Shown: positions 12,592 to 26,801, numbered from the stretch's first letter. The stretch is 61,020 nucleotides of DNA from a bacterium (GCA_029558735.1 JAKQDP010000054.1:1-61020); one strand, 5' to 3'. The notes: a model not told the origin generated them from the sequence alone. Numbers and translations: made by a program.

Positions 12592-15471
12592 TTAAATTTT
12601 TTCCAGCTTCAATTTTATTGTTTCGCCATTAACTGCTTCGGCTTCGCCATCATTAATCTGATTGACAATCTCACCGGCAATGGTCAACCGCTTTAGCTCC
12701 TCAATCCTTTCTGGAGCAGCCAAAACCTGATTGACCAATGGTCCGCTGCTCTCCCAGCTTATTTTAATCCGGTCACTAATGGTCAGTCCGGCTCGTTTGC
12801 GTCGGGCATTTATTGTCCGGACCAATTCTCTCGTCAAGCCTTCAGCCGCCAATTCCGGCGTAATCGCCGTATCCAATTCCACCCCGAGCTCATCAGCTGA
12901 TAAAAATTCTACCTGTTTGACATTGAGCTCTTCGGCCACTAAAGCGAAAAATTCTTCCGTCAACTTATTGGCTTTTTGATCTTTGGTTATCAACTTATTT
13001 AAGGGCTGGCGGATTTTGATGTTGGCTTGGGCCCGAGCCGCCAATCCCAGCTCGGCGATTTTGCGCGCCTGCTCCATCTGCCAAAGCAATTTTTTATCAA
13101 GCGCCTTCTGCTCCGCCTCCGGCCACTGCTCCAGATGGACTGATTCTTTCTTCCCGCCGACCGCCTGATAAATCCGCTCAGCGATAAACGGGGTAAACGG
13201 CGCCATCACTTGGGACAACTGAATCAGGGTGTGCCGGAAAGTGGCTAACGCTTGTCGCTTGTCGGCTTCGTCTGGCGATTTGAACCGATCGCGCGACCGC
13301 CGTAGCCACCAGGTGGAAAATTCATCAATAAACTGGGCGATCGGCCGTACCGCTCTAACCAACTCATAGCTATCCATTGCTTCGGTCACTTCTTGAATTA
13401 ATCCATTTAATTTCGCCACCAACCAGCGGTCCAAAATATTTTCCGGCTTGACCGCTATTGGCTCGCCCGGTTGTTCATATAGCTTGTAAAACTGCAAAAT
13501 ATTACCGGCCAGCATCACCACTTTCTGGAACGCTTCTTTCACTCCGGCTTCGGAAAAATTGAGATTTTCCGCCGCCATTACCGGCGAAGACAATAAATAA
13601 TAACGCAAAGCATCAGCGCCGTATTTATCCATAATCAATTCCGGCTCCGGATAATTTTTGAGCCGCTTAGCCATTTTTTTGCCATCCTCGGCTAGCACAA
13701 TGCCATTGGCAATAACATTATCAAAGGCCCGGCTTTGGTTGAGCGCCACTGCCAAGACATGCAAGTAATAAAACCAGGCTCGCGTCTGATCGACGCCCTC
13801 GGCGATAAATTCCGCCGGAAAACTTTCCTCAAATTTTTTCTCATTTTCAAAGGGATAATGGAACTGAGCATAAGGCATTGAGCCGGATTCGAACCAGCAA
13901 TCCAACACATCGGGAATGCGCTTCATGGCCTCGCCGCAGCCGCAAGGCACTGCGATTTTATCAATAAAATGTTTGTGCAAATCTTCAATTTTATCACCGC
14001 TGGCCTGTTCCAATTCCGCCACCGAGCCAAACACTTTCTGCTCGCCGCAGGAACTGCACACCCAAATCGGCATCACCGAGCCCCAAAACCGTTGACGGGA
14101 AATCGACCAATCGCGCGCCCCTTCCAGCCAGTTGCCAAATCGCCCATCCTTGATATGGCCGGGCACCCAATTAATCGGCTTGGCTTCTTTGAGCATCTTA
14201 TCTTTCAGCTCGGTCACTTTGACAAACCAAGACGAAGTGGCGTAATTGAGTAGCGGACTGTCGCAACGCCAGCAATGCGGATAAGCATGGCTGAATTTTT
14301 CCGCTTTGAACACCAGTCCTCGCTTGTCCAAAAATTCTACGACTTTCCGGTCGGTGGCCGAAGAATCTTTTTTCGGCTTCACTTCTTCGCCGGCAAAATC
14401 AATCACCTCGGATTTAAACTTTCCATCCATTCCGACATGCTGGATAAACGGCAAAGCTTGGGCTAACCCGAGATTCATATCTTCTTCGCCAAACGCCGGC
14501 GCAATATGGACTATGCCAGTGCCGTCTTCCACGGTGACAAACTCGGCCGCTACAATCGTATAAAAATTTTCTTTATTTTTTAAATTCTGCTCGAGATAAT
14601 AATCAAACAACGGCCGATATTTTTTCCCCACCAAATCTTTGACCTTGACCGGCCCAATAATTTCATATTGTTTGCCGGCAAAAATCGCTTCAAGATTTTG
14701 TCTAGCCAAAATATATTTTTTTTCTTCTGCTTTCACTTCAACATAATCAATCTTCTCGCCAATCGCCAACGCCACATTGCCAACCAGCGTCCATGGCGTT
14801 GTTGTCCAAGCCAAAACAAATCGGCCCGGCTCATCAACCAGCTCAAAGCTGGCGATAACCGACAAATCTTCAATGTCTTTATAGCCTTCGGTCACTTCCG
14901 ATTGCGATAAGGTCGTCTCGCAACGCGGACAAATATGCATTGACTTATAGCCCTGATAAATCAAACCCTTGTCCCACAACTGCTTGAATACCCACCAAAC
15001 GGTTTCCATAAAATCCTTGTCCATGGTTTTGTAGTCGTTGTCCATATCCACAAAACGTCCCAATCGCTCCACTACTCGCCGCCATTCCCGGGCGTAAGTC
15101 AGCACCTTGCTTCGGCAAGTCTCATTAAATTCGTCCACGCCAATTTCTTCTTCAATTTGTTTCTTGTTTTTTATTTTCAATTCTTCTTCAACAATATTTT
15201 CAATCGGCAGTCCGTGGCAATCCCAGCCCCACCGTCGCTCCACAAATCGCCCCTTCATTGTCTGATATCTGGGCACCGCGTCCTTCATCAAGCTGGCGAC
15301 AATGTGGCCGTAATGAGGCGTGCCAGTGGCAAACGGCGGCCCGTCATAAAAACTATAGCGCTTGCCGTCCTTGGTCGCTGCCAGTGTTTTCTCAAAAATT
15401 TTATTGTCTTGCCAAAATTTTTGTACTTTTTTCTCCTCCTCCACTAAAGGATTTAATTTTTGTTCCACCAT
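12592..15471 (-). CDS. ileS: isoleucine--tRNA ligase (type 2, eukaryote-like form)
   Basis: 959 aa. HYGH motif (PPFATGTPHYGH), KMSKS-type KMAKRLKNYPEP, CP1 editing domain. The N-terminal pattern is typical of the IleRS2 class. Confidence 0.93.
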   Translation of the reverse strand: MVEQKLNPLVEEEKKVQKFWQDNKIFEKTLAATKDGKRYSFYDGPPFATGTPHYGHIVASLMKDAVPRYQTMKGRFVERRWGWDCHGLPIENIVEEELKIKNKKQIEEEIGVDEFNETCRSKVLTYAREWRRVVERLGRFVDMDNDYKTMDKDFMETVWWVFKQLWDKGLIYQGYKSMHICPRCETTLSQSEVTEGYKDIEDLSVIASFELVDEPGRFVLAWTTTPWTLVGNVALAIGEKIDYVEVKAEEKKYILARQNLEAIFAGKQYEIIGPVKVKDLVGKKYRPLFDYYLEQNLKNKENFYTIVAAEFVTVEDGTGIVHIAPAFGEEDMNLGLAQALPFIQHVGMDGKFKSEVIDFAGEEVKPKKDSSATDRKVVEFLDKRGLVFKAEKFSHAYPHCWRCDSPLLNYATSSWFVKVTELKDKMLKEAKPINWVPGHIKDGRFGNWLEGARDWSISRQRFWGSVMPIWVCSSCGEQKVFGSVAELEQASGDKIEDLHKHFIDKIAVPCGCGEAMKRIPDVLDCWFESGSMPYAQFHYPFENEKKFEESFPAEFIAEGVDQTRAWFYYLHVLAVALNQSRAFDNVIANGIVLAEDGKKMAKRLKNYPEPELIMDKYGADALRYYLLSSPVMAAENLNFSEAGVKEAFQKVVMLAGNILQFYKLYEQPGEPIAVKPENILDRWLVAKLNGLIQEVTEAMDSYELVRAVRPIAQFIDEFSTWWLRRSRDRFKSPDEADKRQALATFRHTLIQLSQVMAPFTPFIAERIYQAVGGKKESVHLEQWPEAEQKALDKKLLWQMEQARKIAELGLAARAQANIKIRQPLNKLITKDQKANKLTEEFFALVAEELNVKQVEFLSADELGVELDTAITPELAAEGLTRELVRTINARRKRAGLTISDRIKISWESSGPLVNQVLAAPERIEELKRLTIAGEIVNQINDGEAEAVNGETIKLKLEKI

Positions 15472-15991: not shown

Positions 15992-16375
15992 TTATTTAGC
16001 GTTTAACAATTCTATCACCTTGGCCAATAATTTTGAAGGCGTATAATCGGATTTGACCAAATAACCATCGGCGCCCAGCCGCTTAGCCAGGGCGACTTCA
16101 TTTTTCTGAGTTAAATTGCTCCAGACATAAATCGACACCTGCTTATACTTGGGGTCCTGCTTAATTTCTTTCAGCGTCTGATAACCGTCCACTTCCGGCA
16201 TCAATAAATCCAACAACACCAAATCCGGATTAATCCGCCGAATTTTTTCAATCGCTTCGGCGCCGTCTCGAGCCACATCCACCTTAAGACCGGCATGATC
16301 CATCATCATGCTGTAAATCGAGGCCAATTCCGGCTCGTCCTCGACAATTAAGATTTTTTTGCCTTCAATGCCCAT
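15992..16375 (-). CDS. stand-alone response regulator receiver domain
   Basis: 127 aa. KILIVEDE, phospho-acceptor context LVLLDLLMPEVDG, conserved K (YLVKS). No output domain. Confidence 0.9.
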   Translation of the reverse strand: MGIEGKKILIVEDEPELASIYSMMMDHAGLKVDVARDGAEAIEKIRRINPDLVLLDLLMPEVDGYQTLKEIKQDPKYKQVSIYVWSNLTQKNEVALAKRLGADGYLVKSDYTPSKLLAKVIELLNAK

Positions 16376-20836: not shown

Positions 20837-21358
20837 TTATTTTATTAATATAAAATTCAATTTATCTTCCTTAAATAAATCCAACAAGTTCCTAAAATAA
20901 CCAAAGCTTATCTTGTCTTCAATCATTTTTTTATCATAGCCCCCGGCCCAAGCAATGTCCGCGTCATTTCCGGATTCGCCCAATTTTTTTAAAAATTTTT
21001 TTTGGATTTTCATCGCCGCCGATTCCAGCCGATTCAAGGGCAAAATATATTTCCCTTTCTTAAATTGAGTGGCATGATAAGCCTCATGAATAATCAACGA
21101 AGCCAACCAATTAACATCGTTCTTCAAAATAACCGACTTATTGGCAAACCAAATTTTTTCCGGCATAAAAAACTCATTGGTAAAACCGAAACGGTTGGTC
21201 ACAAAAATAATTTTTAATCTTTCGGGCAACTTCTTATATTCCATTTTATCCACCCTTTTGATTAATTCCACCGCCGCAACCACCAGACGAATAATTTCTT
21301 TATTCGGAGCAATAATAGTCAAAAAATCTTTTTTTTGACGATAAAATTTTTTTCTCAT
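20837..21358 (-). CDS. hypothetical protein with HExxH zinc-metallopeptidase-like motif
   Basis: The track ORF extends to 21430, but that extension overlaps a terminator hairpin. ATG at 21358 (MRKKFYRQKK...) is the likely start. Motif LIIHEAYHATQF. Confidence 0.6.
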   Translation of the reverse strand: MRKKFYRQKKDFLTIIAPNKEIIRLVVAAVELIKRVDKMEYKKLPERLKIIFVTNRFGFTNEFFMPEKIWFANKSVILKNDVNWLASLIIHEAYHATQFKKGKYILPLNRLESAAMKIQKKFLKKLGESGNDADIAWAGGYDKKMIEDKISFGYFRNLLDLFKEDKLNFILIK

Positions 21359-21360
21359 AA

Positions 21361-21405
21361 GGCAAATAAAATAAGGTTGTGTTACTCTTAGTATACAACA
21401 CAACC
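21361..21405 (-). terminator. intrinsic terminator/attenuator hairpin between the Pro-rich ORF and the HExxH gene
   Basis: Minus strand: GGTTGTGTT (21397-21405) pairs with AACACAACC (21375-21383), a perfect 9 bp stem, followed by TTATTTTATTT. Confidence 0.55.
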
Positions 21406-21426
21406 TCGGGGGGAGTAAATCGGCCA

Positions 21427-21528
21427 TCACTTGGGCCGTGGCATCGGCGGCGATGGCGGACGCGGAGTCGGTCTCGGCCGATTAGGACCGCGCGGTCCCG
21501 GCGGATGCGGTCCCGGCTTATCCGGCAT
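21427..21528 (-). CDS. untracked 33-aa proline/arginine-rich peptide
   Basis: AAAGGAGGTG lies 7 nt upstream of ATG (21526-21528). Translation: MPDKPGPHPPGPRGPNRPRPTPRPPSPPMPRPK, TGA at 21427-21429. The ORF is a GC-rich patch in AT-rich surroundings. Confidence 0.5.
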   Translation of the reverse strand: MPDKPGPHPPGPRGPNRPRPTPRPPSPPMPRPK

Positions 21529-21592
21529 TTTCAACACCTCCTTTCACGGACAGATCTATTCGGCTCTATTTTAGTTATCAAGACTAAATATG

Positions 21593-22019
21593 TCAAATAC
21601 CCTTTACAATACTATCAACCGCATCTTCATTTTTCCGATGATTTTGATTATATTCTTCCGGTTTTAATAGATGAGCTATCTCATGTAGGATTACGTGCTT
21701 CCACCAACCGTTATTATTAATATCAGTTATTCTAAGAAAAATAGCCTTCATTGATTTGTCATATCCGCCACCCGAACCAAAAGGAGTTATGATTAATATT
21801 ATAAATATTCGGCTCTTTAACGCCAATTGCTCTTGCTATTTTTTTTGATAAATGCCGGCCATCTTTTTGCCACCAATTGTTTATTTTTGGTATTACTCTC
21901 TGCATCTCATCTTTCCAATCTGACGTAAGATAGTATCTTTTAGCAGCGGATAAATAACTTTCTGCCTTTTTTTTTCGCCGGCAATATTGGCTTAAGTCCC
22001 CAACGCCTAAAATTACCAT
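21593..22019 (-). pseudogene. frameshifted HExxH metallopeptidase-like gene (ImmA/SprT-like)
   Basis: Two overlapping ORFs in different frames, 21759-22019 and 21593-21826. The second carries WWKHVILHEIAHLL. Joining them near the A/T run around 21800 would give one protein of about 140 aa. Alternatively a sequencing error or two separate genes. Confidence 0.4.
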
Positions 22020-22128
22020 TACGATAATTCTTTAACGTCAAAGAAAATTCCCTCTTTATTCCCTCCCAAGAGATAATAATTTTTATTTTAGACATAAAAT
22101 AATACCCAAATAAAAGCATACCAATTAT

Positions 22129-24366
22129 CTAACCGGACTTCACTCTCCTCGCCTTTGACTTATCCGCCATGGGCAGAGAAAAGGAAAACTTGGCGCCCTT
22201 GTTTTTGCCCGGACTTTCCGCCCAAATCCGGCCACCCATGCTCTCCACTAGCAGCCGCGCATAGTATATGCCCAAGCCCGTGCCTTCGGTGTGGACCTGC
22301 ATCATGCCCTTGCCCCGGACGAATTTGTTGAATAGTCTAGGCAAATCATCCGGCTCAATGCCGAGACCTGTATCCTGACAAGCAAAGACGATTGACTGGC
22401 TCTCCTGATGCAGGTTGACCATAATCTCGCCCTCGTTGGTGTATTTGAGAGAATTGTCTATGATATTGGAAACGACTTCCTTGATCTTGCTGACATCACC
22501 GGCCGCTTTGGGCAGGCGCGGCTCCACCTCCATAATTAATTTCAATTTTTTCTCTTTGGCTTTGATTTTAAAATCTTCAATAATCGGCTTGACAATTGCC
22601 GCCATATCCACCGGCTTGATATCCAAATCCTCCCGGCCGGCTTCAATGCGGGAAATATTGAGCAGGCTCTCCACCAGATTGAGCAGGCGCTCGTTGGCCC
22701 AAAAAACCTTTTCCACGCCCTCTTTGACCGGCTTGGAAATTTTGCCGAAACTGCCTTCCAAAATCATGGAAGTATAGCCTTTGACCGCGGTGGACGGCGT
22801 GCGCAACTGATGGGAGGCGATGGACAAAAATTCCGATTTCGCGTCATCCAGTCGCATCAGCTCTTTGTTGGCGGCCGCCAAGTCCTTGGTAGCTTTTCTG
22901 ACTTCATTCTTCAAATGAATATTAAACTTCCTTTGTTCCTCATACAGCCGGGCGTTTTCAATGGCAATCGCCGCCTGGCCGGCAATAATATTTATCACTT
23001 TCAAATCCTGGCCGGTGTACAAATCACCGGATTTTTTCACTCCCAAAACCGCGGCGCCGATAAGCTGTTTCTTGATATACAGTGGCACTACTAGAGCAAT
23101 ATCGTTGCGGTAGAGCAATTCCAAAAGCTCGGGACTCTCGGGAATAAATTCCTTGTTTTCATAACGAGCTTTTATTTCCTCCATCACCAAAGTACCCTTG
23201 ATTTTGCGAAGCTCGTTTTTCAAAATCTTTTCGATATTCTTGAAATTGATCAATTGCGAAGCGACTTGCTCTTCAAAGCCGATTTGACAACCGATTTTAA
23301 GCTTTCCATTCTCAAAAAGGACAATGCTGAATTTTTCCAAATTAAACGCCCGAGACAAAATCGCCGCCAATGCTGCCAATAATTTGTCCAAGTTCAGAAT
23401 GGACAAAATAGTTTCATTTATTTTGTCCAACAATTCGTCGGCATTATATGACTTTTTGTACAAAAAAGAATTAGTCAGCCGCTCAAGAGCCCGATGAAGC
23501 GGATGATAAAAAGCGACTAAGAAAGTTACCACTAAAACACTGGAAATAACATCCGACTTAAGCCCGGCGACATTAGTGAAGGAATAAGCGATAAGAGCGG
23601 AGATAGCCGAAAAAGCGGCTGTCACGATTAAAACCAAAAAGCTGAAAGTAATAGAGCGAACAATAATAAGACGAATGTCCATCAAGCGAAGCTTGAATAT
23701 GGCATAGGCCATGGTAAAAATATGAAGTGGAACCATAAAAACAAAAACAGGATTGATGGGAATATTATAAATCAAAGGTACGACCGAGTTGCCGCCAATG
23801 AAGCCGAAAAAAGATGACATGATAATATATCTTAATTGTGCTTTCAAAATACCTGCTGATTTTTTATAAGCGGTTAATAATTCAAAAAAAGCCCAGATTG
23901 GAATTACTATCTCATTTATAAGATGTAAATTATATAAACCAATTGGCACCTCTACCCATGGGAATACCATCTTTGGCGCCAAATTTGATAGAAAAAAATT
24001 AGTATTGAATAACATGTCACATAAATTCAGAGAAAATATAAATAGAGAATTTATATAAAAAAATAGTAATGGATTTTTTCTATCTTTATCTTTTTTTGTA
24101 AATATTAAAACCGTATGTAGGAAAAAAAGATGTACTAAAATAGAACCAATATGCAAAAAACGACCCCAAAATAGGGCACTATCAAAACTATCAGCAAATA
24201 AAAGAGCATATCTCCCAACTGACCAAAACACCAACGATATGTTTGTAAGTGCATATAATAAATTAAATCTTTTCTTTACCCCCTTAGAAAATATAAAAAT
24301 CGCGATAAAGGTGCCGCCGACAGCAGTCAATAAATAAGATGTTTTATATAATAAAAGCAAGTCCAT
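22129..24366 (-). CDS. sensor histidine kinase, multi-TM N-terminus plus GAF-like region plus HisKA/HATPase
   Basis: 745 aa. About 7-8 hydrophobic helices in the first 290 aa. H-box FLSIASHQLRTP. ATPase boxes NIIDNSLKYT, DTGLGI, GTGLGIYYA. Confidence 0.9.
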   Translation of the reverse strand: MDLLLLYKTSYLLTAVGGTFIAIFIFSKGVKKRFNLLYALTNISLVFWSVGRYALLFADSFDSALFWGRFLHIGSILVHLFFLHTVLIFTKKDKDRKNPLLFFYINSLFIFSLNLCDMLFNTNFFLSNLAPKMVFPWVEVPIGLYNLHLINEIVIPIWAFFELLTAYKKSAGILKAQLRYIIMSSFFGFIGGNSVVPLIYNIPINPVFVFMVPLHIFTMAYAIFKLRLMDIRLIIVRSITFSFLVLIVTAAFSAISALIAYSFTNVAGLKSDVISSVLVVTFLVAFYHPLHRALERLTNSFLYKKSYNADELLDKINETILSILNLDKLLAALAAILSRAFNLEKFSIVLFENGKLKIGCQIGFEEQVASQLINFKNIEKILKNELRKIKGTLVMEEIKARYENKEFIPESPELLELLYRNDIALVVPLYIKKQLIGAAVLGVKKSGDLYTGQDLKVINIIAGQAAIAIENARLYEEQRKFNIHLKNEVRKATKDLAAANKELMRLDDAKSEFLSIASHQLRTPSTAVKGYTSMILEGSFGKISKPVKEGVEKVFWANERLLNLVESLLNISRIEAGREDLDIKPVDMAAIVKPIIEDFKIKAKEKKLKLIMEVEPRLPKAAGDVSKIKEVVSNIIDNSLKYTNEGEIMVNLHQESQSIVFACQDTGLGIEPDDLPRLFNKFVRGKGMMQVHTEGTGLGIYYARLLVESMGGRIWAESPGKNKGAKFSFSLPMADKSKARRVKSG

Positions 24367-24368
24367 AT

Positions 24369-25019
24369 TTAGAGTTTTTTAATTAAACGATATTGGCCAT
24401 GCAAACCATGCTTGTCTTCTGTTTTGGGATTTCTTATCTCTTTAAAAATTTTAAAACCGTATTTTTCATAAAACTTTATGGCTAATTTATTATTGATCGA
24501 AACATCTAAAAAACAATTATTATAATTTTTTAATTTTGCTTTTTTAAAAGCGTTTTCTAGCAACATACCCCCGATTCCTTTGCCTTGCATTTCTGGCATG
24601 ACAGCCAAATTGGCTATGTAGTAAGAATCCGGCTGTAGTTTCTTAATGAATTTATCTATTTGATAATTTCTATAAATCATTTTTGCAACTTGTATAGGGT
24701 TATGTCGCTTGATTATATAGGCATCGTTAAAAAATTGATGCACCTTTTTATCCTTTAGGGCATATCCAACTTCTAAGCCAACAATTTTACCATCAAACTC
24801 TGCCACCTCTGCAAATTTATGGGAAAAAATACCTTTGTTTTTTTCAAATAATATTTTTAATAACTGAAAAATTTTCTCTTGTTCATAGGAAAAGAGATAG
24901 TCAAAAAAATAATCACCAGTAGAATAAATCAGCTTATTCGCCGGATCAGAATGACTCGGCGAAGCAGGTTTGATAATAATCTCCTGACCCATAGAATTAT
25001 AGAATAAATAGTAATTCAA
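24369..25019 (-). CDS. GNAT family N-acetyltransferase
   Basis: 216 aa. Acetyl-CoA motif MPEMQGKGIGGMLLENAFKKAK. The track start is TTG, so ATG at 24992 is an alternative. The stop abuts the HK start. Confidence 0.8.
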   Translation of the reverse strand: MNYYLFYNSMGQEIIIKPASPSHSDPANKLIYSTGDYFFDYLFSYEQEKIFQLLKILFEKNKGIFSHKFAEVAEFDGKIVGLEVGYALKDKKVHQFFNDAYIIKRHNPIQVAKMIYRNYQIDKFIKKLQPDSYYIANLAVMPEMQGKGIGGMLLENAFKKAKLKNYNNCFLDVSINNKLAIKFYEKYGFKIFKEIRNPKTEDKHGLHGQYRLIKKL

Positions 25020-25177
25020 CTTGTTTTTAACTTATTTATATTATACCATAAAAACAAGAATACAAATAAATATAACAAAAAGATACCTCCCGCCACCGAG
25101 CTTGCTTTGGGATAATTCCTTTATAATTTAGTTGAGCAATTTCAAAAATTCTTTAATGTTAAAAAACCACAAAATAC

Positions 25178-25206
25178 TTGACTTGATATTTGAAATATAT
25201 TAATAT
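25178..25206 (+). promoter_or_regulatory. sigma70-like promoter of the radical SAM locus
   Basis: TTGACT (25178-25183), 17 nt, TAATAT (25201-25206). Confidence 0.5.
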
Positions 25207-25255
25207 CTGCTATGAAACTGGTACTTTTTAAACAAAGAAAGGCAGGGATGATATC

Positions 25256-26656
25256 ATGTCTCTTTGCATGGATAAAATCTACAAAAAAACTCGTTTCCTC
25301 CAAACTGTTCGCGAAGACAATCTCGTGGCCATTTGGCACTCTCTTTTTGGCAACCCAAAAACTGTATCGCCTGAGACCATGGACTTCATTGAAAAATTTT
25401 CAATACCCAAAACATTGCGCTCGGTTGTTGGAGACTCAATAAATGCAGAAACAATAAATGTGTTAAATGAGCTGGTTGATTGCTATTTTCTCACTCTGGA
25501 AGACTTTGACGACAGGACTTTACTGAAAGACAAGATAAAACAGCGTGAAGAAAAAATTATCAACGGTTCACTAATAGATTACCTAGAATTGATTATGAGC
25601 GAAACTTGCAACTTCGCTTGTGATTACTGCATTCACTTCAAAAACCTTGGAGGATCTGACCGCATGAATAGCCACCAAAAATTCATGCGACTTAAAATAG
25701 CCAAACAGGCGATCGACTGGTATCTGGCCATACTTCGTCAAAATGGAAAACAAAAGGCTACGATTAATTTCGGCGGTGGCGAACCTCTATTAGTTTGGGA
25801 TACTATCCTACAGGTTATTAAATATTGCGATGAAACATACGGCAATGAATTTGAATTCAGCTTTTCGATCAACACAAATGCTTCTCTCATAACCCAACAA
25901 ATTGCAATGGTGTTAAAGAAGTATCGTGTAAATGTTGCCTCAAGTCTGGATGGGTTGCGTGAAGGAAACGACAAAGTCAGATTAACTAAATCCGGTGGTG
26001 GCACATTTTCTCAGGTGATCCGTGGATTTGAGACCTTGGCATTAGTGGGCCATCCGATTGACGGGATTGCAGTTACCGTAACCGAGAAAAATTTTTATGA
26101 TATCGATGAATCGATTATCGATTGGGCAATTGATCACGATATGACAAATGTAAGAATCGATATTGATGTAATCGGCTTGGTGGATATACCAATCGATCTC
26201 ATCGTGAGAAAACTAATAAGAATCCGCAGATATGCAGCATCCCGAAAAATTGATGTACCAGGTTTTTGGTCCCGCCCAGCCGAAAATCTCGGTCTATCAA
26301 CTCTTAATGAGCCCGTCGCATTTTGTGGCGGAATTCGAGGAAACAGTGTATGTGTAAATCCATCTGGCAATATTTATGCGTGCGGTTATAGCGCCAATAA
26401 GCTCGGAAATATATCAGATGGTAGATTATTTTACGCCCCTGGCAGTTTTTATCATTCTTTGATTAGACAGCATCTAACTGGTATGACAAAAATGTGTCAA
26501 GGGTGTATGATTGAGGGGCAATGTGGCGGAGGCTGCATGATCACACATGAGTTTTCTTTAAAGGCTGAGAATGCTAAAATTGAACGCATGTGCGACTTCT
26601 ATATTCGCATGACTGAGGAGATAATCCGAGATCAATTGCGAAGTGCAGCAGTCTGA
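25256..26656 (+). CDS. radical SAM/SPASM-domain peptide-modifying enzyme (putative RiPP maturase)
   Basis: 466 aa. CxxxCxxC cluster CNFACDYC about 110 aa from the N-terminus. C-terminal SPASM signature read directly: C..GNIYAC (G-x4-C), then CQGCMIEGQCGGGC (C-x2-C-x5-C-x3-C). Confidence 0.9.
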   Translation: MSLCMDKIYKKTRFLQTVREDNLVAIWHSLFGNPKTVSPETMDFIEKFSIPKTLRSVVGDSINAETINVLNELVDCYFLTLEDFDDRTLLKDKIKQREEKIINGSLIDYLELIMSETCNFACDYCIHFKNLGGSDRMNSHQKFMRLKIAKQAIDWYLAILRQNGKQKATINFGGGEPLLVWDTILQVIKYCDETYGNEFEFSFSINTNASLITQQIAMVLKKYRVNVASSLDGLREGNDKVRLTKSGGGTFSQVIRGFETLALVGHPIDGIAVTVTEKNFYDIDESIIDWAIDHDMTNVRIDIDVIGLVDIPIDLIVRKLIRIRRYAASRKIDVPGFWSRPAENLGLSTLNEPVAFCGGIRGNSVCVNPSGNIYACGYSANKLGNISDGRLFYAPGSFYHSLIRQHLTGMTKMCQGCMIEGQCGGGCMITHEFSLKAENAKIERMCDFYIRMTEEIIRDQLRSAAV

Positions 26657-26696: not shown

Positions 26697-26801
26697 ATGC
26701 GCGATCAGACAAGCAGTCAGCGATTGACGGGCCTGAGCATTAAGGCACTGACGATGCCCAAGTCTCTTGCGACCTGCAAGGCACCAAGCAACTGCCATTA
26801 A
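26697..26801 (+). CDS. untracked 34-aa candidate precursor peptide
   Basis: GGAGG (26683-26687) lies 9 nt before ATG 26697. Translation: MRDQTSSQRLTGLSIKALTMPKSLATCKAPSNCH, TAA at 26799-26801. It starts 41 nt after the rSAM stop and is followed by a terminator. Confidence 0.5.
   Translation: MRDQTSSQRLTGLSIKALTMPKSLATCKAPSNCH

What the first reader, a model, noticed from the sequence alone, without database searches (positions are those of the whole stretch)
21361..21528. GC-rich 33-aa ORF with 17 prolines and a perfect Shine-Dalgarno, followed by a terminator hairpin
AAAGGAGGTG-N7-ATG opens MPDKPGPHPPGPRGPNRPRPTPRPPSPPMPRPK. The ORF is a strongly GC-rich 100-bp patch in AT-rich DNA and contains an internal direct repeat (CCGGGACCGC twice). 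It stops 21 nt before a perfect 9-bp hairpin plus T-tract, which sits immediately upstream of the HExxH gene start.

There are two non-exclusive readings:
- (a) A leader peptide or ribosome-arrest sensor. PPG, PPS and PPM motifs are known EF-P-dependent stalling sequences, so stalling could control the terminator in a classical attenuation layout.
- (b) A secreted Pro/Arg-rich peptide. RPRPTPRPP resembles the PRP repeats of animal ribosome-targeting proline-rich antimicrobial peptides (drosocin, Bac7, oncocin), which would be unusual for a bacterial gene.

The neighbours on both sides are putative zinc metallopeptidases.
Basis: partly seen in the sequence, partly recalled or inferred. Interest (0 to 1): 0.65.

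Follow-up and report, generated by a model that had tools for sequence, protein, structure and literature searches.

The report
Conserved proline-rich microprotein gene beside zincin
The GC-rich patch is a real small gene for a conserved, positively charged, proline-rich 33-residue peptide, apparently well expressed, that candidate-phyla-radiation bacteria keep directly upstream of an uncharacterised zinc-protease-like gene; both families are undescribed, and the peptide looks like a product in its own right, not a regulatory leader.

Summary
On the minus strand, a consensus-like promoter and the SD AAAGGAGGTG (6 nt before the ATG) open a 33-codon ORF at 21528..21427. It has 16 prolines, not 17. 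A 10-12 bp hairpin plus T-tract follows, then the ATG of a 173-aa HExxH gene.

The ORF is a conserved gene. In 21 of 25 distinct loci carrying a homologue of the HExxH protein (44-88% identical), a 21-35 aa ORF lies just upstream. All share the core DK-xx-PH-x-PGP-[KR]-GPNRP-x-P and a variable Pro/Lys/Arg tail. All 18 third codon positions of the core vary, and dN/dS is about 0.03. This excludes an RNA element.

Promoter and SD recur in most loci. A terminator hairpin of unrelated sequence recurs in 20 of 21. RNA-type runs show depth peaking on the ORF.

The attenuation reading is poorly supported:
- no antiterminator structure;
- stop-to-hairpin distance varies from 6 to 19 nt;
- PPG is not conserved;
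- several downstream genes have their own leaderless TATAAT.

Resemblance to animal PrAMPs is compositional only. The HExxH protein models confidently as a minimal gluzincin-like fold.

Best reading: an abundant peptide paired with a low-level peptidase that acts on it. Function is untested.

The parts
21568..21596 (-). Promoter-like site TTGACA-17-TAAAAT. The -35 hexamer overlaps the stop codon of the upstream pseudogene.
   Evidence: 11 of 12 matches. Related loci: 10 of 18 score at least 10 of 12, against 4.5% of shuffles, and 11 of 18 have an exact TTGACA. The strain variant L010/L016 has different upstream DNA but a perfect TTGACA/TATAAT pair.
21535..21544 (-). Shine-Dalgarno AAAGGAGGTG, 6 nt before the ATG.
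   Evidence: GGAGG is kept at the same in-frame spacing in 16 of 18 loci. Only about 6 of 41 genes in the window have any SD.
21427..21528 (-). 33-codon ORF plus stop: MPDKPGPHPPGPRGPNRPRPTPRPPSPPMPRPK. The conserved core DKPGPHPPGPRGPNRPRP is followed by a variable Pro/Arg/Lys tail.
   Evidence: Family alignment. Codon table. Core dN/dS 0.034, with 18 of 18 third positions variable. RNA-type contigs peak here.
21492..21517 (-). Direct repeat GCCGGGACCGC x2, encoding PGP twice (21517..21507 and 21502..21492). Overlapping it, the palindrome GGACCGCGCGGTCC lies at 21498..21485.
   Evidence: The codons differ in relatives, so the repeat follows from the PGP..PGP coding in this lineage and is not a conserved DNA element.
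21359..21407 (-). Intrinsic-terminator-like hairpin (21407..21373; 12 bp including 2 G-U pairs; 11-nt loop; dG -13.3) plus tail ATTTTATTTGCCTT.
   Evidence: A hairpin plus T-rich tail of unrelated sequence lies at the same place in 20 of 21 peptide-bearing loci. Depth in RNA-type run X10 drops from 50 to 2.6 across 21379/21373.
20837..21358 (-). 173-aa HExxH protein with no SD. Invariant residues are H91, E92, H95, E112 and the motif NEFFMPEKIWF. It is the conserved partner gene.
   Evidence: 64 homologues, all unnamed; named sources are Patescibacteria. AF2 pLDDT 90.4. Foldseek best matches are selecase and the M1 aminopeptidase catalytic domain, E about 0.01, probability 0.97-0.99. No Pfam, NCBIfam, PADLOC or PDB-sequence hit.

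Best explanation
This is a stand-alone small gene. It has its own strong promoter, one of the few true Shine-Dalgarno sites in this genome, and its own intrinsic terminator. It encodes a conserved, cationic, proline-rich microprotein.

It forms a two-gene module with the next gene, an uncharacterised cytoplasmic minimal gluzincin-like HExxH...E protein. The module is found in Patescibacteria (CPR).

The signals imply that the peptide is made in large excess and the enzyme at a low level. The enzyme would be expressed by terminator read-through, or in several lineages from its own leaderless promoter.

The most likely working relation is substrate (or ligand) and peptidase: the HExxH protein trims, matures or clears the peptide. 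This resembles precursor-peptide/processing-enzyme cassettes, in which a hairpin after the structural gene sets the stoichiometry.

Shown:
- the ORF is coding and under purifying selection;
- promoter, SD and terminator are conserved;
- linkage to the HExxH gene is conserved;
- RNA depth peaks on the ORF;
- the partner has a zincin-like fold.

Inferred:
- the peptide acts in trans;
- the enzyme acts on it;
- the enzyme is a hydrolase.
For: Coding and selection:
- The frame is kept in 21 of 25 loci, while the HExxH partner diverges to about 40-60% identity.
- pS is 0.75 (saturated) against pN 0.13; dN/dS is 0.034.

Expression signals:
- Promoter and SD are conserved.
- SD use is rare in this genome.
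- Terminators have unrelated sequences but the same position, and they fold independently of the ORF.

RNA:
- Runs X3, X5 and X10 show depth 5-50 on 21357..21546, with about 0-3 on the flanking genes.
- The DNA-like run X7 is flat.

Linkage:
- Genes outside the pair differ from locus to locus.
- Peptide variants track HExxH subclades; for example, PHGPGP goes with the MNI.FF clade in L013, L027 and L041.

Independent transcription of the partner:
- A perfect TATAAT lies 6-7 nt before the ATG in L011, L028, L029, L031 and L040.

Partner fold:
- pLDDT is 90. HExxH and a Glu 17 residues later are invariant. The best matches are minigluzincin and M1 catalytic domains.

Analogy within the same window:
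- A second SD-led mini-ORF plus terminator sits right after a radical-SAM gene. This suggests the layout marks peptide-product genes in this organism.
Against: - No biochemical or proteomic evidence shows that the peptide accumulates or that the HExxH protein cleaves it.
- The fold match is weak (E about 0.01, TM 0.3-0.55), and HExxH proteins can be non-hydrolytic (PMC12636437).
- Terminated leader transcripts of attenuators are also abundant, so the RNA peak does not by itself exclude a cis role.
- Logan contigs break at strain variants, and their depth is a poor measure of expression.
- The peptide always lies upstream, on the same strand and within 27-71 nt of the HExxH start. A leader would show the same arrangement.
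- Four HExxH homologues lack an adjacent peptide, so the enzyme does not strictly need a neighbouring peptide gene.
- In three loci the tail after the core is only RPK, too short for a typical RiPP core.
Confidence: 0.5

Rival explanations
1. Cis-acting leader peptide. Translation of the proline-rich ORF is slow or stalled without enough EF-P or Pro-tRNA. This sets how closely the ribosome follows RNA polymerase, and so whether the terminator in front of the HExxH gene forms. The peptide itself would have no function.
For: - The ORF, terminator and gene lie in fixed order on one strand in 20 of 21 peptide-bearing loci.
- The HExxH gene has no SD when the peptide is present, but has its own SD in L034 and L035 where the peptide is absent.
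- PPG, a strong EF-P-dependent motif, is present in most members.
- There is a precedent that polyproline stalling increases intrinsic termination when EF-P is missing (PMC5021804).
- In about half of the loci the stop codon is 10 nt or less from the stem, so a terminating ribosome could touch it.
Against: - There is no antiterminator: terminator pairs keep P > 0.9 in the full transcript in 15 of 17 loci.
- In the other half of the loci, this window included, the stem starts 12-19 nt after the stop, probably beyond the reach of a terminating ribosome.
- The distance from the conserved core to the hairpin varies by more than 40 nt.
- PPG is not conserved (GPG, SPG, PRG, GPASAP), while non-proline residues D, K, H, N and R are invariant.
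- Perfect leaderless promoters for the HExxH gene occur in five peptide-bearing loci.
- L041 has no terminator at all.
- Lack of an SD is the rule in this genome, so it is not a sign of coupling.
- In the published precedent the hairpin lies inside the translated region. Here it lies after the stop.
Confidence: 0.2
2. A bacterial counterpart of proline-rich antimicrobial peptides. The peptide would bind the ribosomal exit tunnel or A-site and inhibit translation, either in a host or competitor cell or in the producer as a dormancy switch. The HExxH peptidase would be the antidote or immunity factor.
For: - The peptide is 48% Pro, has net charge about +6, is unstructured and is 21-35 aa long.
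- The N-terminus after Met removal reads X-D-K-(P/G)-(G/S/P). Hemipteran PrAMPs start VDKPP or VDKGS (sequences checked in PMC11678341).
- RPRPTPRP lies in this window's tail.
- The producers are CPR bacteria, generally regarded as episymbionts (background knowledge).
- A cytoplasmic peptidase next door would fit an immunity role.
Against: - Similarity to five PrAMPs is mostly no better than composition-matched shuffles. Only a few of 40 tests give p < 0.03, and none is consistent across members.
- The Y-L-P-R-P pharmacophore is absent.
- PRP repeats lie in the non-conserved tail and are missing in L033.
- There is no signal peptide, leader or nearby exporter.
- Very strong constitutive-looking expression of a self-toxic peptide, with a weakly expressed antidote, is hard to reconcile.
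Confidence: 0.1
3. A small protein of independent function, for example a nucleic-acid- or ribosome-binding basic microprotein. The HExxH gene would be only a long-standing neighbour, with no biochemical link.
For: - The two genes appear to be separate transcription units in several loci: terminator plus leaderless promoter.
- The HExxH gene exists without the peptide in 4 loci.
Against: Adjacency, order and orientation are kept in 21 of 25 loci, while every other neighbour changes. The most divergent pair, L033, keeps the arrangement. Conserved gene pairs in otherwise scrambled neighbourhoods usually mark a functional link.
Confidence: 0.12
4. A non-coding GC-rich RNA or DNA element, with the ORF being fortuitous.
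For: - The GC-rich patch can form local hairpins, for example the palindrome GGACCGCGCGGTCC.
- The short transcript is abundant in RNA-type runs.
Against: - Rfam finds nothing here.
- Nucleotides vary at all 18 third positions, while amino acids are kept.
- The palindrome and direct repeat are not conserved.
- SD and ATG are conserved at fixed spacing.
Confidence: 0.01

Closest known systems
Precursor-peptide/processing-enzyme cassettes of RiPPs and bacteriocins, with a terminator hairpin after the structural gene
   Same: - A short, strongly expressed peptide gene is followed by a hairpin and then an enzyme gene.
- The peptide has a conserved N-terminal part and a hypervariable C-terminal part.
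- The partner has a metallopeptidase-like fold.
- In some loci the pair sits near radical-SAM, ThiF-like, SagB-like and M16 genes.
   Different: - No class-defining RiPP enzyme is consistently adjacent.
- The radical-SAM genes nearby have their own Cys-rich or YGD-repeat mini-ORFs.
- The variable tail can be as short as 3 residues.
- There is no exporter.
- Neither gene matches any described family.
Hemipteran and other animal proline-rich antimicrobial peptides (oncocin, pyrrhocoricin, drosocin, apidaecin)
   Same: - Length, Pro content and cationic charge are similar.
- The N-terminus reads X-D-K-(P/G).
- PRP repeats occur in some tails.
   Different: - The peptide is encoded by a bacterium without a signal or pro-region.
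- The conserved core (PH.PGP[KR]GPNRP) has no counterpart in PrAMPs.
- Similarity is not above composition.
- Ribosome binding is untested.
Ribosome-coupled transcription attenuators (pyrBI, trp and his leaders; polyproline/EF-P uncoupling, PMC5021804; proline-codon leaders mgtL and mgtP of Salmonella, from background knowledge)
   Same: A short ORF with proline codons lies upstream of an intrinsic terminator and a downstream gene on the same strand.
   Different: - The hairpin lies after the stop codon at a variable distance.
- There is no antiterminator.
- Selection acts on specific non-proline residues.
- The peptide is far longer and more conserved than those leaders.
- The downstream gene often has its own promoter.
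Minigluzincins (selecase, projannalysin) and the catalytic domain of M1 aminopeptidases: the closest folds of the partner protein
   Same: - HExxH lies on the active-site helix, with a Glu on the following helix.
- There is a mixed beta-sheet upper subdomain.
- The protein is small and soluble.
   Different: - No sequence-level membership: Pfam, NCBIfam and PDB profile searches are all negative.
- It has an extra N-terminal beta-hairpin and C-terminal helices.
- Catalytic activity is untested.
alpha-Ketoglutarate-dependent HExxH oxygenases of RiPP pathways (ChlBH, BpmH, PflC/PosC; PMC12636437)
   Same: An HExxH protein is encoded next to a short peptide gene. There is a distant structural match to 8s5f (rank 38).
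   Different: - There is no NCBIfam hit to that domain family.
- The protein is about half the size.
- The organisms come from biogas, wastewater and groundwater samples, where an O2-dependent enzyme is less likely.

Membership tests
Ribosome-mediated transcription attenuator (leader peptide) | A short translated ORF upstream of, and on the same strand as, the regulated gene, with an intrinsic terminator between them | tested here: met
   20 of 21 peptide-bearing loci.
Ribosome-mediated transcription attenuator (leader peptide) | Ribosome position decides terminator formation: either an alternative antiterminator pairing, or an ORF that overlaps or abuts the hairpin | tested here: not met
   terminator pairs have P > 0.9 in 15 of 17 full transcripts and there is no shared competitor; the stop-to-stem distance is 6-19 nt (19 nt in the window).
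Ribosome-mediated transcription attenuator (leader peptide) | The sensing codons or motif (here the polyproline PPG/PPP) are the conserved feature | tested here: not met
   PPG is replaced by GPG, SPG, PRG or GPASAP, while D, K, PH and GPNRP are invariant.
Ribosome-mediated transcription attenuator (leader peptide) | Stalling and read-through respond to EF-P or Pro-tRNA | not testable with these tools
   Needs toeprinting, Ribo-seq or reporter assays.
Proline-rich antimicrobial peptides (oncocin or apidaecin type) | Cationic, at least 25% Pro, 15-40 aa | tested here: met
   16 of 33 residues are Pro, with 5 Arg, 2 Lys and 1 Asp.
Proline-rich antimicrobial peptides (oncocin or apidaecin type) | Conserved PRP or YLPRP-type pharmacophore, and sequence similarity beyond composition | tested here: not met
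   shuffle-controlled local alignments are mostly non-significant. PRP occurs only in the variable tail.
Proline-rich antimicrobial peptides (oncocin or apidaecin type) | Made as a secreted pre-pro-peptide | tested here: not met
   The ORF starts 1-5 residues before the conserved DK. There is no hydrophobic signal and no exporter gene in the conserved neighbourhood.
Proline-rich antimicrobial peptides (oncocin or apidaecin type) | Binds the ribosomal exit tunnel and inhibits translation | not testable with these tools
   Needs an in vitro translation assay or a structure.
RiPP precursor plus tailoring-enzyme cluster | A short precursor gene adjacent to an enzyme gene, with a conserved recognition part and a variable part | tested here: met
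   alignment: an 18-residue conserved N-terminal core and a 3-17 residue variable tail. Adjacency.
RiPP precursor plus tailoring-enzyme cluster | A class-defining modifying enzyme (radical SAM, YcaO, LanB/M and so on) consistently linked | tested here: not met
   Radical-SAM genes lie within about 5 kb only in the window, L007, L010, L029, L036, L037 and L042, and they carry their own mini-ORFs. None was found in L011, L013, L015, L019 or L040.
RiPP precursor plus tailoring-enzyme cluster | Post-translational modification of the peptide | not testable with these tools
   Needs mass spectrometry.
Gluzincin metallopeptidase (for the 173-aa partner) | An HExxH motif, plus a third-ligand Glu on the next helix | tested here: met
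   H91, E92, H95 and E112 are invariant in 23 sequences; they lie on helices 82-98 and 108-125. The ligand role is inferred.
Gluzincin metallopeptidase (for the 173-aa partner) | Zincin fold | tested here: inconclusive
   the best matches are selecase and the catalytic domains of LTA4H and IRAP, with E 0.01-0.1, probability 0.97-0.99 and TM 0.3-0.56.
Gluzincin metallopeptidase (for the 173-aa partner) | Membership of a curated peptidase family by sequence | tested here: not met
   There is no Pfam, NCBIfam, PADLOC or PDB-profile hit.
alpha-KG-dependent HExxH oxygenases | A match to the HEXXH beta-hydroxylase domain family | tested here: not met
   One search gives no NCBIfam hit. The structural match to 8s5f has only E about 1.
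Pro-Pro endopeptidases (M34) | A match to the M34/ATLF peptidase family | tested here: not met
   One search gives no Pfam hit. No PPEP structure appears among the top 50 fold matches.

The most novel reading that the evidence does not exclude
CPR bacteria encode their own ribosome-targeting proline-rich peptide, a prokaryotic analogue of animal PrAMPs. It would be made without a leader and at high level, and kept in check or matured by a dedicated minimal zinc peptidase. It could be used to throttle translation in the host cell they live on, or to switch their own ribosomes off. The X-D-K-(P/G) N-terminus would then be convergent with oncocin and pyrrhocoricin.
Probability: 0.08. Interest if true: 0.9.

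Novelty: new variant of a known kind. Interest (0 to 1): 0.6.

Why it matters
Gene callers almost never annotate this ORF. It was called in one public contig; every other relative of the peptide was found here by six-frame translation (one more came from a called 61-aa ORF containing a divergent member). Yet it carries some of the strongest expression signals in its genome and is under strong purifying selection across divergent Patescibacteria.

It defines a new microprotein family and gives a first functional handle on a family of about 64 clusters of 'hypothetical' HExxH proteins.

- If the peptide is a substrate of the peptidase, this is a very small and experimentally tractable peptide/enzyme pair from organisms that cannot be cultured.
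- If the peptide acts on ribosomes, or is a stalling sensor, it would bear on how ultra-small symbionts control translation.

Either way, the conserved motif DK..PH.PGP[KR]GPNRP is a concrete target for synthesis and assay.

Tried and rejected
- Rfam scan of the whole window: only one tRNA and nothing at the locus.
- Pfam, NCBIfam and PADLOC on the peptide, the HExxH protein and the upstream gene: nothing.
- PDB sequence profile: nothing meaningful.
- phmmer of the 33-aa peptide against 1.8 billion representatives: no hit.
- Profile search with a padded alignment: one further member, P0065.
- Degenerate DNA pattern in viral contigs: two chance matches inside unrelated ORFs.
- Antiterminator search: none found.
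- PrAMP homology: compositional only.
- Relation between the upstream HExxH gene and the 173-aa family: limited to the HExxH helix.
- Programmed frameshift or read-through joining the peptide to the HExxH protein: rejected. The frames differ and a terminator lies between them.
- Antisense ORFs on the plus strand (21379..21720 and 21431..21574): rejected. The variable third positions of the minus-strand frame would change their amino acids.

Full report
**1. What is there**

The feature lies on the minus strand. Reading 5' to 3':
- A promoter-like TTGACA-17-TAAAAT at 21596..21568, with 11 of 12 matches.
- AAAGGAGGTG at 21544..21535.
- A 6-nt spacer.
- An ATG at 21528 opening MPDKPGPHPPGPRGPNRPRPTPRPPSPPMPRPK.
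- A TGA stop at 21429..21427.
- 19 nt of spacer.
- A hairpin at 21407..21373: 10 perfect pairs, or 12 with terminal G-U pairs, dG -13.3.
- The tail ATTTTATTTGCCTT.
- The ATG at 21358 of a 173-aa HExxH protein.

The peptide has 16 prolines, not 17. Its DNA is 72% GC in a 43% GC window. It is the only one of 1043 ORFs of at least 30 aa in the window with this proline density. The direct repeat is real, but it is simply PGP encoded twice. Relatives use other codons.

**2. It is a conserved protein-coding gene**

The identical locus occurs in many biogas and wastewater assemblies. A strain variant (L010, L016) carries the same peptide with one synonymous change. It sits behind entirely different upstream DNA, which nevertheless provides a perfect TTGACA/TATAAT promoter.

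The 173-aa protein was used as a handle:
- 25 distinct loci were examined, with the partner protein 44-88% identical to the window's copy.
- 21 of them have a 21-35 aa ORF immediately upstream, on the same strand.
- These ORFs share the core DK-xx-PH-x-PGP-[KR]-GPNRP-x-P and a variable Pro/Lys/Arg tail.

In the 18-codon core:
- All 18 third positions vary, against 6-7 first or second positions.
- pS is 0.75 (saturated) and pN is 0.13, giving dN/dS of about 0.03.

The frame, the SD and the start are conserved, so this is not an RNA element. Rfam also finds nothing here.

**3. Expression signals**

- GGAGG at the same in-frame spacing is kept in 16 of 18 loci.
- 10 of 18 loci have a promoter-like site scoring at least 10 of 12, against 4.5% of shuffles.
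- Only about 6 of 41 genes in this window have any SD, so the perfect SD is exceptional for this organism.
- Twenty of 21 peptide genes are followed by a hairpin of 8-14 bp (dG -11 to -26). It starts 6-19 nt after the stop and has a T-rich tail.
- The hairpin sequences are unrelated between lineages. L041 has lost the hairpin.

Contigs of three RNA-type runs (wastewater and activated sludge) cover 21357..21546 at depth 5-50. The flanking genes are at 0-3, and a DNA-like run is flat. In X10 the depth falls from 50 to 2.6 across the 3' arm of the hairpin. Two caveats apply: these are assembler contigs that break at strain variants, and terminated leaders are also abundant.

**4. The partner**

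- The 173-aa protein has no Pfam, NCBIfam, PADLOC or PDB-sequence match.
- Its 64 homologue clusters are all unnamed. The named sources are Tagabacteria, a 'Patescibacteria group' bacterium and a Saccharibacteria MAG.
- AlphaFold2 gives pLDDT 90.4.
- Foldseek's best PDB matches are the minigluzincin selecase and the catalytic domains of M1 aminopeptidases, with E about 0.01 and probability 0.97-0.99.
- H91, E92, H95 and E112 are invariant, as is the strand motif NEFFMPEKIWF.
- It has no signal peptide or membrane segment.

I read it as a cytoplasmic minimal gluzincin-like enzyme. Hydrolase activity is inferred. HExxH proteins can also be alpha-KG oxygenases (PMC12636437). That is less likely here, because there is no family match and the habitats are largely anoxic.

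**5. Leader peptide or product?**

Against an attenuator:
- The terminator folds on its own, with pair probability above 0.9 in 15 of 17 full transcripts and no shared competing helix.
- The stop-to-stem distance varies from 6 to 19 nt, and is 19 nt in the window, probably out of reach of a terminating ribosome.
- The distance from the conserved core to the hairpin varies by more than 40 nt.
- The polyproline motif is not what is conserved. PPG becomes GPG, SPG, PRG or GPASAP, whereas D, K, PH and GPNRP are fixed.
- Five peptide-bearing loci have a perfect TATAAT 6-7 nt before the HExxH ATG. These are leaderless promoters, and L012, which lacks the peptide, has the same arrangement.
- Four homologues have no peptide upstream.
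- Lack of an SD on the HExxH gene is normal for this genome.

For an attenuator:
- The order and orientation are invariant.
- In about half of the loci the stop lies within 10 nt of the stem.
- There is a published precedent that polyproline stalling without EF-P increases intrinsic termination (PMC5021804). In that case, however, the hairpin is inside the translated region.

I put the pure-leader reading at about 0.2.

**6. PrAMP resemblance**

After Met removal, most members begin X-D-K-(P/G)-(G/S). This recalls VDKPP in oncocin and VDKGS in pyrrhocoricin (sequences verified in PMC11678341). Local alignments to five PrAMPs are mostly no better than composition-matched shuffles. The PRP repeats lie in the variable tail, and there is no secretion signal or exporter. 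The resemblance is one of composition and charge. The mode of action remains possible but unsupported (about 0.1).

**7. Context**

Outside the pair, the neighbourhood is not conserved. Some loci, this window included, lie in islands containing:
- a HisKA_7TM histidine kinase;
- radical-SAM/SPASM enzymes;
- GNAT or FeeM-like acyltransferases;
- ThiF-like and SagB-like proteins;
- M16 peptidases.

The radical-SAM genes have their own Cys-rich or YGD-repeat mini-ORFs. In this window there is a second SD-led mini-ORF plus terminator at 26697..26801. The layout 'SD-led mini-ORF plus terminator' therefore seems to mark peptide-product genes in this organism. This supports reading the proline-rich ORF the same way.

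It is absent in sister strains and is unrelated to the 173-aa family. It is not part of the unit.

**8. Verdict**

This is a real small gene for a conserved proline-rich cationic microprotein, with strong expression signals, unannotated in almost all the assemblies examined. It is tightly linked to a new minimal gluzincin-like family in CPR bacteria.

The most likely mechanism is that the peptide is produced in excess and is the substrate or ligand of the low-abundance peptidase (confidence about 0.5). The cis-leader, PrAMP-like and independent-neighbour readings remain open.

Neither gene belongs to a described family, and the architecture resembles precursor/processing-enzyme cassettes. I therefore rate it a new variant of a known kind, with interest 0.6.

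Noticed in passing
window 26697..26801 (+): A second SD-led mini-ORF (GGAGGTG-N7-ATG; MRDQTSSQRLTGLSIKALTMPKSLATCKAPSNCH) is followed by a strong terminator hairpin. It lies directly after the radical-SAM gene at 25256..26656 and is probably that enzyme's precursor peptide.
   Followed up: partly
window 21593..22095 (-): The upstream HExxH gene (HEIAH motif) is split by two 1-nt insertions, in an A-run near 21967 and near 21793, relative to the intact 166-aa copy in L007 and run X7. It has no Pfam or PADLOC match, and its stop codon overlaps the -35 of the peptide promoter.
   Followed up: partly
L010 and L016, against window 21546..22138: A strain-level variant replaces the 591 bases holding the upstream HExxH gene with 71 unrelated bases that carry a perfect TTGACA/TATAAT promoter. 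The peptide gene then directly follows the histidine kinase. The same joint is seen in runs X3 and X7.
   Followed up: partly
window, all gene starts: Only about 6 of 41 predicted genes have a Shine-Dalgarno sequence. Several have TATAAT a few bases before the ATG (for example 15992..16375), which suggests frequent leaderless or SD-independent initiation in this organism.
   Followed up: partly
window 22129..26656; L007, L036, L037, L041, L042, L013: A recurring but not constant island lies around the pair. It includes a HisKA_7TM histidine kinase, GNAT or FeeM-like acyltransferase, radical-SAM/SPASM enzymes with Cys-rich or YGD-repeat mini-ORFs, ThiF-like and SagB-like nitroreductase genes, a PaaK-like enzyme, a transglutaminase-core protein and M16 peptidases.
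   Followed up: partly
window 13874..13953 (-): ARAGORN calls an 80-nt tRNA-Gly(CCC) inside the 959-aa ORF at 12592..15471, whose homologue in the related loci carries class-I tRNA-synthetase domains. Rfam does not report it, so it is probably a false positive.
   Followed up: no
L041 5755..5875: This is the only peptide-bearing locus without a terminator. The spacer is 27 nt and keeps the tail of the hairpin region seen in L027, which looks like a deletion of the stem. Peptide and HExxH gene are presumably co-transcribed there.
   Followed up: partly
window 21485..21498 (-): A perfect 14-nt palindrome, GGACCGCGCGGTCC, lies inside the ORF and encodes GPRGP. It is not conserved in relatives, so it is probably incidental.
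   Followed up: yes
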